From Candidatus Saccharimonadota bacterium (GTDB taxonomy: Archaea > Nanohalarchaeota > Nanosalinia > Nanosalinales > Nanosalinaceae), in the NCBI RefSeq assembly GCF_029232205.1, contig NZ_CP107255.1:690001-722000 (forward strand): 32,000 bases of DNA, written 5' to 3'. Below the pieces are notes generated by a model that was not told the DNA's origin, made no database searches, and worked only from the letters and a program-made list of their open reading frames with translations. Shown here piece by piece: positions 1 to 32,000 of the stretch; position 1 is the first letter of the stretch, and each line of letters begins with the position of its first letter. The position numbers and the translations under genes are program-made.

Positions 1-2
1 CA

Positions 3-659
3 CCGCTCTCATCAGCCGAAAAAACCGTTAAACAGGTAGAGAAAAAGGTTAGAGGCCTGGAAAGATGTGGAGAAGACGTCAAAGTTATGGGCCTCCGACA
101 GCAAGACAAAATAACAATCACAGTTGCAGCCCCAGCCATCTCATCAAGAACAGAATCAATGGAAGAATACAGAGAACACCTGGAAGATGTAGAAAAAGTA
201 GCTGAACAAGTTGCCGAAGAAAACGGCCTCGAACCAGAAGTACATGTAAACACAGCCGACGATCTCGAAAAAGAGGAGATCTACTTGACAGTTACAGGTA
301 CCTCGGCCGAAATGGGCGACGATGGGTCAGTAGGCAGAGGAAACAGAGTAAATGGCCTGATAACACCTCACAGATCCATGAGCATGGAGGCCGCATCTGG
401 CAAAAACCCTGTCACACACGTAGGAAAAATCTACAACCTTCTGTCAAGGGAAATAGCAAAAGAAATTCACGGAAAAACCGGCCACTACGCACAGGTAAAA
501 CTCCTCTCACAGATAGGAGGCCCAATAAAAGACCCGCAACTGGTAGAAGTAGAGTCATCAGCTGAAGAAAAAGACATAGAACAGATAGTGTCAAGAAAGC
601 TAGAGGAAATAGACTCAATCACTGAAAAATGTGTTAAAGGAGATATCAGCACATTCTAG
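3..659 (+). CDS. mat: S-adenosylmethionine synthetase, archaeal type; C-terminal ~219 codons, 5' end lies outside the window
   Basis: The frame of the listed 87..659 ORF stays open back to base 3 with no stop, so the gene is cut by the window edge. The translation carries GTSAEMGDDGSVGRGNRVNGLITPHRSMSMEAASGKNPVTHVGKIYN, the conserved core I recognise from archaeal MAT rather than bacterial MetK. Confidence 0.85.
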   Translation, partial: PLSSAEKTVKQVEKKVRGLERCGEDVKVMGLRQQDKITITVAAPAISSRTESMEEYREHLEDVEKVAEQVAEENGLEPEVHVNTADDLEKEEIYLTVTGTSAEMGDDGSVGRGNRVNGLITPHRSMSMEAASGKNPVTHVGKIYNLLSREIAKEIHGKTGHYAQVKLLSQIGGPIKDPQLVEVESSAEEKDIEQIVSRKLEEIDSITEKCVKGDISTF

Positions 660-719
660 TGCTTTATAGCGGCCAGGTGATTCTGCAACCATTTTAATCC
701 TCAGCGACATCAATATGTT

Positions 720-3700
720 ATGGAGCTGAGACACTTCTTCTACTTTATAACCATTTTATTTGTCTTCAGCACCTTGTCTACAGCTTCCGGCCCCCAGTCC
801 TACTACAGCTTTAATTCAGAGCAGCTAAATATTCAAGATACCTACAGCAACAATAATATTCAAGGCCTTGCTTCCAGCTTACGTTTTGATGGAGAAGATG
901 ACCACATACAGGTTCCTTACTCTGAAAGCATGGATATAAAAGATGAACTGACTATCGCCGGATGGGTTTACCTAGAAAAACACCCTGATCAAACCTCCAA
1001 CAACGATTACCGACTTATATTCGGCAGATCAAACGGCTACGATCCATACGGCCTCTTACTGGAGGAAAGCTCCACAGGCCTTGTAGGAAGCACATTCTTC
1101 AACGGCAGCAGACAGTACGTAGCAGGAGGCATAGATCCAGCTGAAATGGTAGATCAATGGAGCCACGTCGCATTTACGTACGATGCAAATACTGGAAACG
1201 GAACAATCTACCTTAACGGATCGATACTAGGCACTGGAATATACGAAACAGGCCAGTTCGATACCTCGACCAAAAACATCCAGTTCACAGAACCAGGCGG
1301 GCCTAATGGACACACCTGGAACGGAAAAATGTCGGACATGCGACTTTACAACCGGTCCCTCTCCACAACCGAGATAAACCAGCTTTACGGAGGAAAAAAT
1401 GTCGAGCAGGACCTGGTTTCCTACTGGCCCATGTTTAACAAAAAAGGGAAAGTATACGACGTAACCGGGCCTAATGACGGTTTCTGGCAGTCATCTTCAA
1501 CCTCGGGGATACTCAACTTTGATGGTTTTGTGAATGGCTCTTTCAAGGACGGGTCGGAGAAAAATAATCACGGCCTGTACACAGACATGATAGAAGGATC
1601 TTTCAGCGGCGCAAACGACGGGACGCTGGATGGGGGACAGAGAACAGGTAGCTTTGATGGCAAAGCCGTAGAATTCAATGGGGCCGGAGATATCGACGTG
1701 CCGAACAGTGCCTCGCTGAATTTCAAGGATACAGGCTTCAGTATTTCAGCCTGGTTCAAAACAAACAGCACAAGCATGACTGGATCCTGCTGCCTTTCAC
1801 ACACTATGATTGAGAAGTACGGTAGCGGCCAGGGATACATGCTAGGCATAGCCTACGGAGATACAATCTACGCATCATTTTTCGATGATACTGGGGGAAA
1901 ATTTGATCCAAGAGCCACACCTCCTTCAGACTTCAAAGACAACAAATGGCATCATGTCGTAGGTGTGAACAACGGTACACACGCCATGCTATACTATGAT
2001 GGTAGTTTACTTGATACACAGACAGCGAAAAAGACCGACTACAGCAACTCGGACAGTTTAAGAATAGGGAGCGGTTTCAACGGAACAATAGACAACGTCA
2101 AAATCTACGATAATGCCTTGGACAAATACCAGGTTAAAGACCTATACAAAGACAGAAGAGAGTTATATGCACAGCAAAAAGCTGAATACAAATTTGAGGG
2201 ATCCGGGACATCAATTAAAGACACATCCATGATTCAACCTGGCGTATCTGGAGAATCTCTCAGTATCGACGGCGTAAACGACCAAGTCACATTCCCAGAG
2301 AACAATGAAATAAACAGATCAATGAACTCGGAAAACTGGACTATCAGCTTCTTCTTCAAACCAAGAGAGTCACTTATCGGAGGAGGCTGGTCTGACTTTA
2401 TCAACATGCCAACCAAAAACAGCGGAATGTTCCGAATAGAACACAACAAAAACCTGGGAGATGGAATTATAGCCTACTGGTCAATAGACGATGGCACAAA
2501 TGGCCACAACCCTGCTGACTACATATGCAGCTTCCGAAACCTGGATGAAACAAAATGGTATCATCTAGCAGTTACACTGGAAAGCTCAAATAAAGGAGCA
2601 AAATGCTTTGTAGACGGCAAACTCAGCGACGAAGAATCGGCCTCCGCAATGGCAGACCACGAAAAAATCAAGGGAAGCATCAACATTCTCTCAGACACCG
2701 GAAAAAGATACAATATAGACTCATTCAAGATCTTCAACACGACAATGAACAGCTCGGAAATACAGAAACTGAGCTATGGCCGAGAACCTTCACAAATTGA
2801 ACTTAGAGACTTCTCCTTTGACTCCATGCAAAACGACACAGTATACGACACGTCCATGCTGGGACAGGGGAAGAATAGAAAAGGCCTCCACCTGAAAGAA
2901 GGCAATGGATACGCATACCTGCCCGATAGCTCAAGTCTATCGCCAAGCGACGAAGTAACAGTTGCTGCATGGATTAAACAGACAGGCACAGCCTCAAGCT
3001 CGTACCAGAGAATAACAGATAAAGGATCAGGCCTTACTTACTGGGTTCACGATGGAAATGGAGATACTTGCGTAAGGCTCTCAGCCACGGAATCAGGTGG
3101 GAGCGCGCAGACCTGTTTCAATACCAACATTCAGAAAGACAGATGGTACCATCTGGCATTCAGCTACGATTCCGACACCAACGAGACCAAACTTTACCTT
3201 AACGGCTCTCTATTTGGAACAAGCACATACTACACAGGCCCGATGTCAGGAAGCGGGTCAGCACTATCAATAGGAAACTCTGGAGGTTCAAGGCCCTGGA
3301 TTGGAAAAATAGATGAGCTGAAAATTGAAAACGAGGAACTAACTGAAGAAGAAATATCAGACCTTTACAGAAGCGAGAAAGCAGGCCTTGCACAGGAAAC
3401 TTCCGACCCCGACCCCTCAGACTTCAAATTCGAGAACGGGATCTTCGGCACAGACAGCCTGAGAATTAACTCAGTTGATTCAAGAGTCGAAGGAGAGATA
3501 TTAAGGCCCGATAAAGGATTTACTGCCTCTTTCTGGGTGTGGAACAGCAACAACTGGGATGAAAACAGGACAATCTGGAAAGACAAAAACAATAGAATAA
3601 GGCTGAAATCATACAGAGAACGTGCAGTACTCGAATGGACGGATGGAAACGACATCTATGGACTGAAAAGCCATAAACTTGCATCAGAGAAATGGTATCG

Positions 3701-31169: not shown

Positions 31170-31255
31170 AGCAAGACCTTGACACACAACTAGAAAACCT
31201 CATAGAAAAGAAAATGAGAGAACTCAGCCAACAATCTGAGTCTCAAAAACTCTAG
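31166..31255 (+). CDS. Possible 29-aa helical micro-protein coupled to the upstream RHH gene
   Basis: The ATG at 31166 overlaps the TGA at 31167-31169 (ATGA). It translates to MKQDLDTQLENLIEKKMRELSQQSESQKL. The only support is the coupling geometry and the lack of alternatives in this gap. Confidence 0.3.
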   Translation: MKQDLDTQLENLIEKKMRELSQQSESQKL

Positions 31256-31298
31256 AAAAACAGATCTGATCTCCAGTCAGACACTCGCGATTCAAACA

Positions 31299-31502
31299 AT
31301 GACATCACTAATAACCGAATTTAAAAACAGTTCCGAATCGGCCAACAACGGGCCAAAACACCAACTAACAGTCAGATTCACTTCGAGACAAATAAGAAAA
31401 ATCGAGAAATTATCTAGAAACTCAAACATTTCTCTAGCAGAATCATGCAGAAGAATTGTCTCAGAAGGCCTTAAACAAAGAGGTGAAAGATTCCATGGCT
31501 GA
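31299..31502 (+). CDS. Ribbon-helix-helix (CopG-like) DNA-binding protein
   Basis: HQLTVRFTSRQIRKIEKLSRNSNISLAESCRRIVSEGLKQ has the RHH layout. Its 3' end overlaps the next gene's ATG (31495) by 8 nt. Confidence 0.6.
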   Translation: MTSLITEFKNSSESANNGPKHQLTVRFTSRQIRKIEKLSRNSNISLAESCRRIVSEGLKQRGERFHG

Positions 31503-32000
31503 AACAAAGACGATAAGCCTAAACAGTGAAGCTCATCGCCTTTACAAAGAACATAAGGAAACCATAGACACACATTTTGACGGAATATCAGGTCTTTTCC
31601 GACACGCACTACGTAACTTGGATGATGGTGAAGCCTTCGATAAAAAGAAGAAACGGCTAAAGCAGGACATAAAGCAGTTTCAAGAAAGGATAGAAGAGAA
31701 ACAAAATGAGATAGAGACTCTTGAAATTCAGCAGAACCTAACTGAAAAGAACGAAAAAGTAGAAGAGCTAGAGAGCAGACTCGACGAACTAAATAAGTCA
31801 ATAGAAAACTTCGAAAGTCAGAAAACTAGAGAAGAATTGGTAGAAGAGCAAAAAAGAAAGAGAAAACAAAGAGGCCACGACATAGATGATCCAGAGGTTA
31901 AGGAAGCTATAGAAAAGAGCGTTGAAAGAGAACTCAGAAAAAGAACTGATCTGGATGATCTTAAACAGGAAAAAGAAAATGTGGAAGAAGAACTTCAAAC
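31495..32000 (+). CDS. RHH-like N-terminus fused to a long coiled coil; 3' end outside the window, so not listed in the ORF track
   Basis: The frame is open from the ATG at 31495 to the window end. It translates to MAETKTISLNSEAHRLYKEHKETIDTHFDGISGLFRHALRNL (RHH-like), followed by heptad-like K/E/Q-rich sequence (KQDIKQFQERIEEKQNEIETLEIQQNLTEKNEKVEELESRLDELNKSIENFE...). The long minus-strand ORFs here are antisense artefacts. Confidence 0.55.
   Translation, partial: MAETKTISLNSEAHRLYKEHKETIDTHFDGISGLFRHALRNLDDGEAFDKKKKRLKQDIKQFQERIEEKQNEIETLEIQQNLTEKNEKVEELESRLDELNKSIENFESQKTREELVEEQKRKRKQRGHDIDDPEVKEAIEKSVERELRKRTDLDDLKQEKENVEEELQ

What the first reader, a model, noticed from the sequence alone, without database searches (positions are those of the whole stretch)
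1..32000. Palindromic GGCC (mostly AGGCC/GGCCT) is several-fold over-represented in the core and collapses in three discrete segments
Hand counts of GGCC in core stretches: 8 in 1-600, 9 in 6001-6600, about 8 in 8000-8750, about 8 in 11760-12480, and 9 in 26160-26980. That is roughly 8-15 per kb. With base independence at my by-eye GC estimate of ~45%, about 2.6 per kb would be expected. The motif occurs in all reading frames, on both strands, and in intergenic DNA (for example 11538, 20281, 24842, 24856), so codon usage alone is unlikely to explain it. By contrast I count 1 in 6865-7980, 0 in 19679-20190 and 6 in 27243-32000, which is near random expectation for AT-rich DNA. Short palindromes are usually avoided in prokaryotic genomes because of restriction pressure, so a strong excess is unusual. 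It also serves as a built-in native-versus-foreign marker for this genome.
Basis: seen in the sequence. Interest (0 to 1): 0.65.

Follow-up and report, generated by a model that had tools for sequence, protein, structure and literature searches.

The report
Hyper-abundant AGGCCT palindrome marks native DNA
The GGCC excess is real, but it is the core of a six-base palindrome, AGGCCT, that saturates the genome of this tiny salt-loving symbiotic archaeon and some relatives, much like the unexplained "HIP" palindromes of cyanobacteria, and its absence exposes a 4-kb piece of imported DNA.

Summary
The window is from Candidatus Nanohalovita haloferacivicina BNXNv (Nanohaloarchaeota, DPANN). The GGCC excess is real: 230 sites, 3.1x base composition, against a median of 0.65x in 115 unrelated loci. 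Gene-wise synonymous-codon shuffles leave a 2.3x excess, equal in all three frames, and core intergenic DNA shows 6.3x. The over-represented word is really the hexamer AGGCCT (StuI site). It is 12.5x with both flanks, 4.3x with one, and 1.3x with neither. AGGCCT is the top hexamer in four nanohaloarchaeal lineages (11-21x, 2.3-4.1 per kb, 14-85x in intergenic DNA). It is not enriched in five others, so the trait is patchy. Full sites are conserved in place 2.5-4x more than control palindromes. One-base variants pile up only at the outer positions. Both features match cyanobacterial HIP1.

Of the three "collapsed" segments, only the last is robust. It is a 4.15-kb cassette (27186-31339) with 2 GGCC, 0 AGGCCT, low GC and non-acidic proteins. 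Segment 1 (ORFan beside tRNA-Tyr) is borderline and segment 2 is not significant.

The mechanism is inferred, not shown. It is probably a lineage-specific, sequence-specific enzyme system, such as a methyltransferase linked to repair or selection. No cognate methyltransferase could be looked for.

The parts
1..27185 (.). Native 'core' DNA with hyper-abundant AGGCCT/GGCC.
   Evidence: AGGCCT start positions: 53, 863, 1076, 2882, 3029, 3383, 3807, 4199, 4223, 4700, 5546, 5661, 5891, 6134, 6369, 6384, 6692, 6774, 7155, 8092, 8408, 8472, 8980, 9303, 9384, 10067, 10735, 10813, 10925, 11095, 12888, 13298, 13582, 13817, 14057, 14372, 14772, 15148, 16156, 16188, 16324, 16486, 16782, 17049, 17770, 18028, 18405, 19186, 20281, 20815, 21702, 21768, 22587, 22697, 22779, 22992, 23824, 24296, 24380, 24841, 26214, 26434, 26499, 26926.
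27186..31339 (.). AGGCCT-free, GGCC-poor cassette of 4,154 bp at GC 38.6%. It is probably recently acquired DNA. Genes: 27446-28003(-), 28256-28993(+) DUF4352, 29426-30049(+) DUF6338 (HBNXNv_0794), 30147-30923(-) winged-helix protein, 30938-31168(+) RHH-like protein.
   Evidence: There are 2 GGCC against 5.7 expected from base composition and 19 expected at the core O/E (P about 1e-6). There are 0 AGGCCT against 10 expected at core density. The tetranucleotide signature, with GGC/GCC words excluded, correlates with the core at r 0.55-0.68, against 0.72-0.88 for most of the core. Four of the five proteins are non-acidic, with D+E of 4-9% and K+R of 12-20%. Gene calls come, and domains. The DUF6338 protein has only three distant homologues. 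No counterpart exists in the 21-kb M3_22 locus.
31340..32000 (.). Return to core-like density at the right edge of the cassette. This stretch includes the acidic coiled-coil gene 31495-32043(+).
   Evidence: There are 4 GGCC and 1 AGGCCT in 31340-32000. The 881 bp beyond the window, read from the same-strain contig L083, add 5 GGCC and 3 AGGCCT. The protein's D+E content is 27%.
6865..7980 (.). GC is 38.7%, with 1 GGCC, which is an AGGCCT at 7155.
   Evidence: The composition-adjusted P is 0.035 uncorrected, and P=0.0006 at core density. The ORF has no homologue other than itself. It is possibly strain-specific DNA, but the evidence is weak.
19679..20190 (.). There are 0 GGCC.
   Evidence: This segment is not significant. 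The composition-adjusted P is 0.19, and about 1.8 gaps of this length are expected by chance among 230 gaps.
24884..26029 (-). Acidic ORF of 381 aa and unknown function that carries the 777-bp GGCC-free gap 25101-25877 and has no AGGCCT. It is absent from the syntenic position in strain M3_22.
   Evidence: The gap has P=0.0013 at GC 45%. The synteny break is at window 24842-26128. No Pfam, NCBIfam, PADLOC or PHROG match was found.

Best explanation
What is shown:
- The GGCC excess is the visible core of a genome-wide, DNA-level signature: hyper-abundance of the 6-bp palindrome AGGCCT.
- This signature is a property of the native chromosome of Ca. Nanohalovita haloferacivicina and of some, but not all, nanohaloarchaeal lineages.
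- It is independent of reading frame, strand and coding status.
- Full sites are retained in place more often than control palindromes, although more than half differ between two related strains.
- One-base variants accumulate only at the two outer positions.
- Sites avoid lying within 20 bp of each other.
- DNA that lacks the signature (cassette 27186-31339) also deviates in GC, in k-mer signature and in protein chemistry. It is therefore best read as recently imported and not yet converted.

What is inferred:
- A hexamer-specific, patchily distributed trait points to a sequence-specific enzyme system that is gained and lost, such as an AGGCCT- or GGCC-recognising DNA methyltransferase.
- Such a system could act through biased repair or correction toward the recognised word, or through selection on methylated sites. 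Either would create and maintain the sites, as proposed for cyanobacterial HIP palindromes.

My confidence is about 0.85 in the descriptive part and about 0.35 in the methyltransferase-linked mechanism.
For: - Identity of the organism: the HD protein is 100% identical to the NCBI protein of this organism on a 1,046,959-bp contig.
- Strength of the hexamer in the core: 12.5x with both flanks, 4.3x with one flank, 1.3x with neither.
- Lineage distribution: AGGCCT is the top hexamer in four lineages, at 10.8-21.1x and 2.3-4.1 per kb. It is 0.6-1.9x in five other nanohaloarchaeal loci. In a single-gene HD tree the enriched lineages fall in two places.
- Codon-shuffle excess of AGGCCT: 3.8-6.1x in all frames. 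Intergenic excess: 14x, 85x and 24x in the three relatives. In the window, GGCC is 6.3x in core intergenic DNA.
- Flanks: beyond positions -1 and +1 the flanks are at background, so the word is not part of a longer repeat.
- Positional conservation between BNXNv and M3_22: 9/22 and 9/20 sites, against 5/47 for control palindromic hexamers and 14-17% for all hexamers with four G/C.
- One-base variants, enriched versus non-enriched genomes: outer GGGCCT 5.7x, TGGCCT 2.3x and CGGCCT 1.5x; inner variants 0.70-1.14x. Elhai reported the same outer-position pattern for HIP1, together with cognate methyltransferases for each alternative HIP (PMC4390886).
- HIP1 is likewise enriched in all frames and conserved in place (PMC5861425).
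- Short-range exclusion: AGGCCT pairs less than 20 bp apart number 3 against 16 expected.
- Deviance of the cassette.
Against: - No methyltransferase, restriction or repair gene specific for AGGCCT or GGCC was found or could be searched for. Only this window and about 20-kb samples of the relatives were readable.
- The published description of this genome lists only a type III Mod/Res pair (BNXNv_0801/0802) and four generic SAM methyltransferases. It gives no methylome for this strain (PMC10266531).
- No specific depletion of a deamination-product word was seen. AGGTCT/AGACCT is 0.76x with P=0.11, inside the background range.
- Base-composition O/E of 9-13x also occurs for codon-driven hexamers such as CTCGAG and GTCGAC in haloarchaea. 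The case therefore rests on the frame, intergenic and lineage controls, not on the raw ratio.
- The lineage sample is 9 loci of about 21 kb each, and the tree is a single-gene neighbour-joining tree.
- The conservation test has only 20-22 sites.
Confidence: 0.55

Rival explanations
1. AGGCCT is a selected functional DNA site that does not depend on methylation. It could be the binding site of an abundant chromosomal protein, or a density-based 'self' mark. Such a mark would distinguish the symbiont's DNA from that of its high-GC host during recombination, repair, defence or DNA uptake.
For: - Full sites are conserved in place 2.5-4x more than controls. Xu et al. used the same argument for selection on HIP1 (PMC5861425).
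- GGCC density per kb is the same in genes and intergenic DNA of the window, at 8.7 versus 8.4.
- Close pairs are avoided.
- AGGCCT O/E has a median of 0.30 in control loci, most of which are haloarchaea. Site density therefore differs about 25-40-fold between symbiont and host-type DNA.
Against: - The trait is patchy among close lineages. That is unexpected for a core chromosomal function.
- More than half of the sites differ between two strains of one family.
- No candidate binding protein was identified.
- A 6-bp word is much shorter than known uptake sequences.
Confidence: 0.28
2. The cause is classical very-short-patch-type repair. A GGCC-specific 5-methylcytosine methyltransferase makes T:G mismatches by deamination. 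A context-specific T:G repair enzyme over-corrects toward GGCC, as in E. coli Dcm/Vsr or the GGCC system M.MthTI with the Mig.Mth glycosylase of Methanothermobacter plasmid pFV1 (both recalled from my own knowledge).
For: - The core GGCC is the invariant part of the word, and variants are tolerated only at the outer positions.
- All single-base neighbours of GGCC are at or below expectation, at 0.60-0.86.
- A small conserved protein next to the HD gene (20343-20867) shows faint similarity to DNA N-glycosylases, with E=0.003-0.008.
Against: - The expected deamination-product words are not specifically depleted relative to non-enriched relatives. AGGTCT/AGACCT is 0.76x (P=0.11) and AGGCTT/AAGCCT is 0.95x.
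- The glycosylase-like gene is also present in the non-enriched lineages L089 and L170.
- By my recollection, VSP effects in E. coli are modest rather than 10-20-fold.
- No cytosine methyltransferase is reported for this genome.
Confidence: 0.1
3. The excess is a by-product of amino-acid composition, codon usage and codon-pair bias in an acidic, A-rich proteome. Candidate sources are AAG-GCC, GAA-GGC-CTT and AGG-CCT.
For: - The maximum-order Markov ratio of GGCC (1.64-1.69) is no larger than the top tetramer of a typical control locus, where the median is 1.6.
- Haloarchaeal codon-driven hexamers reach similar base-composition ratios.
- Frame 1 carries fewer sites in absolute numbers.
Against: - Synonymous shuffles that keep each gene's protein and codon usage still leave 2.2-2.5x for GGCC and 3-8x for AGGCCT, alike in all three frames.
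- Intergenic DNA is more enriched than genes, at 6.3x for GGCC here and 14-85x for AGGCCT in relatives.
- Five nanohaloarchaeal lineages that share hexamer biases such as GAAGAA with the enriched ones lack the excess.
Confidence: 0.04
4. The sites belong to a dispersed short repeat or miniature mobile element that contains AGGCCT.
For: The copy number is high in both genes and spacers.
Against: - Positions beyond -1 and +1 around 275 sites are at background composition.
- Sites sit inside conserved protein-coding sequence in all frames.
- The repeat finder shows no family built around the sites.
Confidence: 0.01

Closest known systems
Highly Iterated Palindromes of cyanobacteria: HIP1 (GCGATCGC) and the 'alternate HIPs' GCsGC, rCCGGy and GrCGyC (Elhai 2015, PMC4390886; Xu et al. 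2018, PMC5861425)
   Same: - It is a GC-rich palindrome at thousands of copies per Mb. Here the density is about 2,000-4,100 per Mb, against 500-2,500 per Mb reported for HIPs.
- It is enriched in all reading frames and in non-coding DNA.
- Its distribution among related genomes is patchy.
- One-base deviations are concentrated at the first and last positions.
- Sites are conserved in place above control palindromes.
- Its function and origin are unknown.
   Different: - The host is an archaeon (DPANN), not a cyanobacterium.
- The word is different and shorter.
- The fold-enrichment is lower, at 11-21x against 15-300x for the 8-mer.
- The cognate methyltransferase that defines the HIP correlation has not been looked for and is not reported in the genome paper.
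- Kilobase-scale periodicity could not be tested in 32 kb.
Very-short-patch repair skew of oligonucleotide frequencies: Dcm/Vsr at CCWGG in E. coli, and the archaeal GGCC system M.MthTI with the Mig.Mth T:G glycosylase (recalled from my own knowledge, not read here)
   Same: It is a repair process tied to a methylated palindrome that pushes the genome toward the recognised word. The core of the word here is GGCC.
   Different: The predicted depletion of deamination-product words is not seen. The enrichment here is far larger and extends to a hexamer.
CCGG over-representation in Helicobacter genomes that carry CCGG R-M systems (Rusinov et al. 2015, PMC4687349)
   Same: It is a rare case in which a short GC palindrome that is a restriction site is over-represented rather than avoided, and it has no accepted explanation.
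   Different: The magnitude there is only about 1.4-1.5 by Karlin's ratio. It is a 4-mer only, and a cognate R-M system is known there.
DNA uptake sequences (DUS/USS) of Neisseriaceae and Pasteurellaceae (PMC1939737)
   Same: They are lineage-specific short words at about 1 per kb or more, in genes and spacers, that act as a self-DNA marker.
   Different: They are 9-12 nt and non-palindromic, and they are tied to competence machinery. No evidence here bears on uptake.

Membership tests
HIP-type hyper-abundant palindrome | A palindromic GC-rich word far above composition-based expectation, at hundreds to thousands of copies per Mb | tested here: met
   AGGCCT is at 11-21x and 2.3-4.1 per kb, and is the top hexamer in four lineages. 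Its second-order Markov ratio is 3.2-5.3, against a control-top median of 1.85 and maximum of 4.3.
HIP-type hyper-abundant palindrome | Enriched in all three reading frames and in non-coding DNA | tested here: met
   Codon-shuffle ratios are 2.5-7.8 in every frame. Intergenic O/E is 14-85x in the relatives.
HIP-type hyper-abundant palindrome | One-nucleotide deviations biased to the outermost positions | tested here: met
   Outer variants are at 1.5-5.7x and inner variants at 0.70-1.14x relative to non-enriched relatives.
HIP-type hyper-abundant palindrome | Sites conserved between genomes above control palindromes | tested here: met
   Conservation is 9/22 and 9/20, against 5/47 for control palindromic hexamers. 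The sample is small, from one genome pair at 72% nucleotide identity.
HIP-type hyper-abundant palindrome | A DNA methyltransferase recognising the word or its core is present in genomes that have it and absent from those that lack it | not testable with these tools
   Whole genomes were not readable. The genome paper reports only a type III Mod/Res pair for BNXNv. Its supplements cover only strain SVXNc.
HIP-type hyper-abundant palindrome | Kilobase-scale periodic spacing along the chromosome | not testable with these tools
   The window is too short. At short range the spacing is Poisson-like, with CV 0.8-1.04, apart from a deficit below 20 bp.
VSP-repair sequence skew | Depletion of the words produced by deamination of the methylated cytosine (GGTC/GACC or GGCT/AGCC contexts) | tested here: not met
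   AGGTCT/AGACCT is 0.76x (P=0.11) and AGGCTT/AAGCCT is 0.95x. The background 5-95% range is 0.53-1.51.
VSP-repair sequence skew | A C5-cytosine methyltransferase together with a T:G mismatch endonuclease or glycosylase | not testable with these tools
   None is present in the window. The 174-aa glycosylase-like ORF is only a faint match and also occurs in non-enriched lineages.
DNA uptake sequence | A 9-12-nt non-palindromic word, often as inverted pairs forming terminators | tested here: not met
   The word is a 6-bp palindrome with background flanks. Pairs closer than 20 bp are depleted, not enriched.
Horizontally acquired genomic island (cassette 27186-31339) | Composition and oligonucleotide signature deviate from the host chromosome | tested here: met
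   GC is 38.6% against 45.3% in the core. Signature r is 0.55-0.68 against 0.72-0.88. GGCC O/E is 0.35 and there are 0 AGGCCT.
Horizontally acquired genomic island (cassette 27186-31339) | Accessory gene content that is absent from close relatives | tested here: met
   The DUF6338 protein has three distant homologues only. No cassette protein hits any of eight nanohaloarchaeal loci. However, synteny with M3_22 already ends at about 26300, so a clean insertion is not shown.
Horizontally acquired genomic island (cassette 27186-31339) | Mobility hallmarks: an integrase, a tRNA target, and flanking direct repeats | tested here: inconclusive
   There is no integrase or tRNA. The only candidate is an imperfect 26-nt direct repeat at 27303-27328 and 31389-31414, at 77% identity, which could be chance.

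The most novel reading that the evidence does not exclude
AGGCCT density is a deliberately maintained 'self' label of the symbiont's chromosome. A nanohaloarchaeon lives attached to, and exchanges material with, a high-GC host whose DNA carries this word about 25-40 times less often. A sequence-specific system, whether methylation-based or not, could read site density to tell its own DNA from host or invader DNA during repair, recombination, nucleotide scavenging or defence. 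Imported DNA would be gradually converted. This would be an archaeal counterpart of the HIP phenomenon with an identifiable ecological rationale.
Probability: 0.12. Interest if true: 0.85.

Novelty: new variant of a known kind. Interest (0 to 1): 0.6.

Why it matters
- Over-represented restriction-type palindromes are rare exceptions to the rule of palindrome avoidance. The best-studied case, cyanobacterial HIP1, remains unexplained after three decades.
- An independent occurrence in a cultivable DPANN archaeon, in a 1-Mb genome, gives a second and simpler system for asking whether such words are made by biased repair or kept by selection. Close relatives that have or lack the trait are available for comparison.
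- My literature searches found no earlier report of this signature in nanohaloarchaea.
- The signature is also practical. It flags a 4-kb imported cassette, and possibly two smaller strain-specific pieces, in a genome that its describers reported as free of genomic islands (PMC10266531).
- It could help bin and decontaminate nanohaloarchaeal metagenome assemblies.

Tried and rejected
- **Codon or amino-acid explanation.** Rejected by the synonymous shuffles and the intergenic counts.
- **Longer repeat or MITE.** Rejected by the flank profile and the repeat finder.
- **VSP signature.** Neighbour-word analysis within genomes and against non-enriched relatives showed no specific depletion.
- **Regular spacing or periodicity.** Spacing is Poisson-like apart from the deficit below 20 bp.
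- **The 174-aa glycosylase-like gene beside the HD gene as a candidate repair factor.** It is present in non-enriched lineages too, so it was dropped.
- **Finding BNXNv methyltransferases in the paper's supplements.** They cover only strain SVXNc. The REBASE survey paper includes only two nanohaloarchaeal genomes and gives no motif for them.
- **Genome-contig scan with the PTS enzyme I.** It returned only haloarchaea and Firmicutes, which served as controls.
- **Metagenome scan with an HD-protein alignment.** It hit only distant archaeal HD proteins at 30-43% identity. These served as controls but gave no relatives.
- **Viral-contig scan for dense AGGCCT triples.** It returned mostly tandem repeats and no nanohaloarchaeal virus.
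- **Extending the window.** Two window proteins were not on record. A same-strain contig added only 881 bp.
- **Searches of cassette proteins against plasmids, phages, PADLOC and PHROGs.** They gave only weak or generic hits.
- **Type III R-M as part of the cassette.** I first assumed the type III R-M genes named in the paper lay inside the GGCC-poor segment. Density recovers before the window end, so I withdrew that assumption.

Full report
**Source and gene content.** An HD-domain protein of the window (20864-22009, minus strand) is 100% identical to an NCBI protein of Candidatus Nanohalovita haloferacivicina on a 1,046,959-bp contig. The DUF6338 gene is HBNXNv_0794. The truncated archaeal SAM synthetase at 87-659 fits the MetK that the genome paper calls BNXNv_0766. 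The organism is a cultivated nanohaloarchaeon (DPANN) that lives on Haloferax lucentense (PMC10266531, PMC10443357). The window encodes three large Laminin-G surface proteins, a complete PTS with a PfkB kinase, TFB, two tRNAs and many proteins of unknown function.

**Checking the observation.**
- There are 230 GGCC in 32 kb at GC 43.9%.
- GGCC is the most over-represented tetramer by base composition (3.1x overall, 3.3x in the core), by a first-order model (3.3-3.5x), and by the maximum-order Markov model (1.64-1.69).
- In 115 unrelated archaeal and bacterial loci of at least 8 kb, the GGCC O/E has a median of 0.65 and never exceeds 1.87. Haloquadratum is at 0.10.
- The Markov ratio alone is not exceptional, because the top tetramer of a control locus is typically about 1.6. 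That model also over-corrects, since GGC and GCC counts are inflated by GGCC itself.

**Codon usage does not explain it.**
- I shuffled synonymous codons within each gene, which keeps the protein and the gene's own codon usage. This leaves 203 observed against 88 expected GGCC in core genes.
- The ratios are nearly identical across frames, at 2.15, 2.54 and 2.41.
- Core intergenic DNA (2,026 bp, GC 38%) has 17 sites against 2.7 expected. That is the same density per kb as genes.

**The real word is AGGCCT.**
- The base before GGCC is A in 58% of sites, and the base after it is T in 49%.
- In the core, AGGCCT is 12.5x expected and is the top hexamer. GGCC with one of the two flanks is 4.3x, and GGCC with neither is only 1.3x.
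- The two flanks act independently, since the maximum-order Markov ratio for the hexamer is 0.98.
- Beyond one base on each side, the flanks are at background, so the site is not part of a longer repeat.
- T just before the word and A just after it are avoided, at 8% and 11%.

**Relatives.** I read about 21 kb around the orthologous HD gene in eight other nanohaloarchaeal lineages.
- AGGCCT is the top hexamer in three of them. In Dead Sea strain M3_22 (CP046106, the closest relative of BNXNv; PMC10443357) it is 10.8x. In MAG JBEQBR01 it is 13.8x, with 75 of 132 GGCC being AGGCCT. In Nanosalina sp. VS9-1 it is 21.1x, at 4.1 per kb.
- In those three genomes, GGCC without A or T flanks is under-represented, at 0.31-0.69x.
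- AGGCCT is not enriched (0.6-1.9x) in Nanohalococcus occultus, a Nanohalobium sp., a SW_7_43_1-like contig, MAG JBEQBC01, and the contigs L170-L172. In a single-gene HD tree, L170-L172 are the nearest sampled relatives of VS9-1.
- The trait is therefore patchy, with at least two origins or several losses. This conclusion rests on nine loci and a single-gene tree.
- In the three enriched relatives, the codon-shuffle excess of AGGCCT is 3.8x, 6.1x and 5.2x, and it is present in every frame. Intergenic DNA is at 14x, 85x and 24x.

**Calibration against codon-driven hexamers.**
- High-GC haloarchaea show base-composition ratios of 9-13x for CTCGAG, GTCGAC and CGATCG. These sit mostly in one frame and fall to 1.2-2.1x after codon shuffling (with crude gene calls).
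- By a second-order Markov model, AGGCCT is at 3.2-5.3 with 49-87 copies. The top palindromic hexamer of control loci has a median of 1.85 and a maximum of 4.3, the latter from a word with only about ten copies.

**Evolutionary behaviour.**
- I built a 9.4-kb codon alignment of thirteen orthologous genes of BNXNv and M3_22. Nucleotide identity is 72%, and third codon positions are 45% identical.
- Only 26 of 85 GGCC sites are shared in place.
- Full AGGCCT sites are shared at 9 of 22 and 9 of 20. Other palindromic hexamers with four G/C are shared at 5 of 47, and all four-G/C hexamers at 14-17%.
- Sites are thus retained better than controls, yet more than half are not shared.
- I compared one-base variants in the four enriched loci with the five non-enriched loci. 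The outer-position variants are in excess: GGGCCT/AGGCCC 5.7x, TGGCCT/AGGCCA 2.3x, CGGCCT/AGGCCG 1.5x. The six inner-position classes are unchanged, at 0.70-1.14x, with none significant.
- If sites simply decayed, inner transition products should also pile up, and they do not.
- The same outer-position bias, all-frame enrichment and positional conservation are published hallmarks of cyanobacterial HIP1 and its alternates (PMC4390886; PMC5861425).
- Spacing is otherwise Poisson-like, but sites closer than 20 bp are depleted. For AGGCCT there are 3 against 16 expected, and for GGCC 36 against 85.

**The 'collapsed' segments.**
- The tail is robust, but it is a bounded cassette. From 27186 to 31339 (4,154 bp, GC 38.6%) there are 2 GGCC and no AGGCCT. 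At the core's O/E, 19 GGCC would be expected (P about 1e-6), and at core density 10 AGGCCT would be expected.
- From 31340 the density recovers. There are 4 GGCC up to the window end, and 5 GGCC with 3 AGGCCT in the next 881 bp, read from a same-strain contig.
- The cassette deviates independently of GGCC. Its tetranucleotide signature, with GGC/GCC words excluded, correlates with the core at 0.55-0.68, against 0.72-0.88 for most core windows.
- Four of its five proteins are basic or neutral rather than acidic, which is odd for this salt-in proteome.
- Its genes encode DUF4352, DUF6338 and small winged-helix and RHH-like proteins. The DUF6338 protein has only three distant homologues in 5.8 billion proteins.
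- No integrase, tRNA or convincing flanking repeat was found.
- The genome paper states that no genomic islands were found in this genome.
- Segment 1 (6865-7980) holds an ORFan with no homologue next to tRNA-Tyr. Its deficit is marginal once its low GC is allowed for (P=0.035 uncorrected).
- Segment 2 is not significant (P=0.19).
It is inside a 381-aa acidic ORF that is absent from the syntenic site in M3_22 and has no AGGCCT.

**Mechanism.**
- Shown: the signal is at the DNA level, is hexamer-specific, is lineage-restricted, is maintained, and is absent from compositionally foreign DNA.
- Inferred: specificity for a six-base palindrome, together with patchy gain and loss, is what one expects of a sequence-specific enzyme system of the restriction-modification kind. 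By analogy with Elhai's finding that each alternate HIP co-occurs with a cognate methyltransferase, I think a methyltransferase-linked process is the most likely generator. That process could be biased correction toward the recognised word, or selection on methylated sites.
- I could not test this. Only the window and short samples of relatives were readable. The paper reports only a type III Mod/Res pair for this strain and no methylome for it. The simple very-short-patch prediction fails.
- Selection for a methylation-independent function, such as protein binding or a density-based self mark, remains a serious rival.

**Literature.** My full-text searches found no report of GGCC or AGGCCT over-representation in nanohaloarchaea. 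Over-representation of restriction-type palindromes is documented as rare, with Helicobacter CCGG as the main and unexplained example (PMC4687349).

**Verdict.** It is an archaeal analogue of the HIP phenomenon that also serves as a native-DNA marker. The mechanism is unresolved, but it is directly testable with existing cultures and sequencing reads.

Noticed in passing
window 10221-15203: A complete sugar PTS (EIIB, EIIC, EIIA, HPr, enzyme I) with an adjacent PfkB kinase sits in a DPANN archaeon. Enzyme I is closest to haloarchaeal enzymes at about 50% identity. The cluster is conserved in strain M3_22 and carries core-like GGCC density. If it came from the host lineage, it has been resident long enough to acquire the signature.
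   Followed up: partly
window 27186-31339, compared with PMC10266531: The genome paper states that no genomic islands were found in this genome. This 4.15-kb cassette deviates in GC, k-mer signature, protein acidity and AGGCCT content.
   Followed up: yes
window 27303-27328 and 31389-31414: An imperfect 26-nt direct repeat (77% identity, CAAATAAGAA...AATTATC) brackets the cassette almost exactly, with 4,086-bp spacing. It could be an attachment-site remnant or chance in AT-rich DNA.
   Followed up: no
window 20343-20867 (minus strand): A 174-aa protein overlaps the stop of the HD-domain gene by 4 bp. It has faint similarity to archaeal N-glycosylase/DNA lyase and OGG-like families and a strong match to an uncharacterised PHROG. 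The HD-plus-small-protein pair recurs in five nanohaloarchaeal lineages.
   Followed up: partly
window 20191-20265: ARAGORN calls a tRNA-Pro(UGG) here, but the Rfam tRNA model reported only the tRNA-Tyr at gathering threshold.
   Followed up: no
L082 9159-9986 and L087 9147-9974, compared with window about 22010-22043: A 275-aa gene lies directly upstream of the HD gene in M3_22 and in MAG JBEQBR01. It is missing at that position in the window.
   Followed up: no
window 15203-20288, compared with L082 11722-14053: This is a variable region between the conserved PTS and HD blocks. The window has four ORFs, including a 739-aa Laminin-G protein, where M3_22 has a RimK-like gene. The Laminin-G gene has lower GGCC density (5.0 per kb) and a weaker signature match (r 0.65-0.68) than the rest of the core. 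It may be an older, partly converted acquisition.
   Followed up: partly
all AGGCCT sites in the window, L082, L085 and L087: T immediately before AGGCCT occurs at 8% and A immediately after it at 11%. So TAGGCCT and AGGCCTA are strongly avoided, more than in-frame stop-codon avoidance alone would give.
   Followed up: no
L003, L039, L012 (haloarchaeal loci): With crude gene calls, CTCGAG, GTCGAC and CGATCG remain 1.8-2.1x above codon-shuffle expectation, including out-of-frame copies (for example 4 against 0.2 expected). Haloarchaea may have their own milder palindromic-hexamer excesses.
   Followed up: no
L173 (IMGVR_UViG_3300029432_000018) and L244 (IMGVR_UViG_3300045988_144701): Two viral contigs at GC 36% have AGGCCT and AAGGCC as their top hexamers, at 15-32x. 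They are unrelated to nanohaloarchaea by composition, so the same word may be hyper-abundant in some other host-virus system.
   Followed up: no
L170 16839-17075: An archaeal histone-fold gene (CBFD_NFYB_HMF) is present in a nanohaloarchaeal contig. This bears on any chromatin-based reading of the short-range site exclusion.
   Followed up: no
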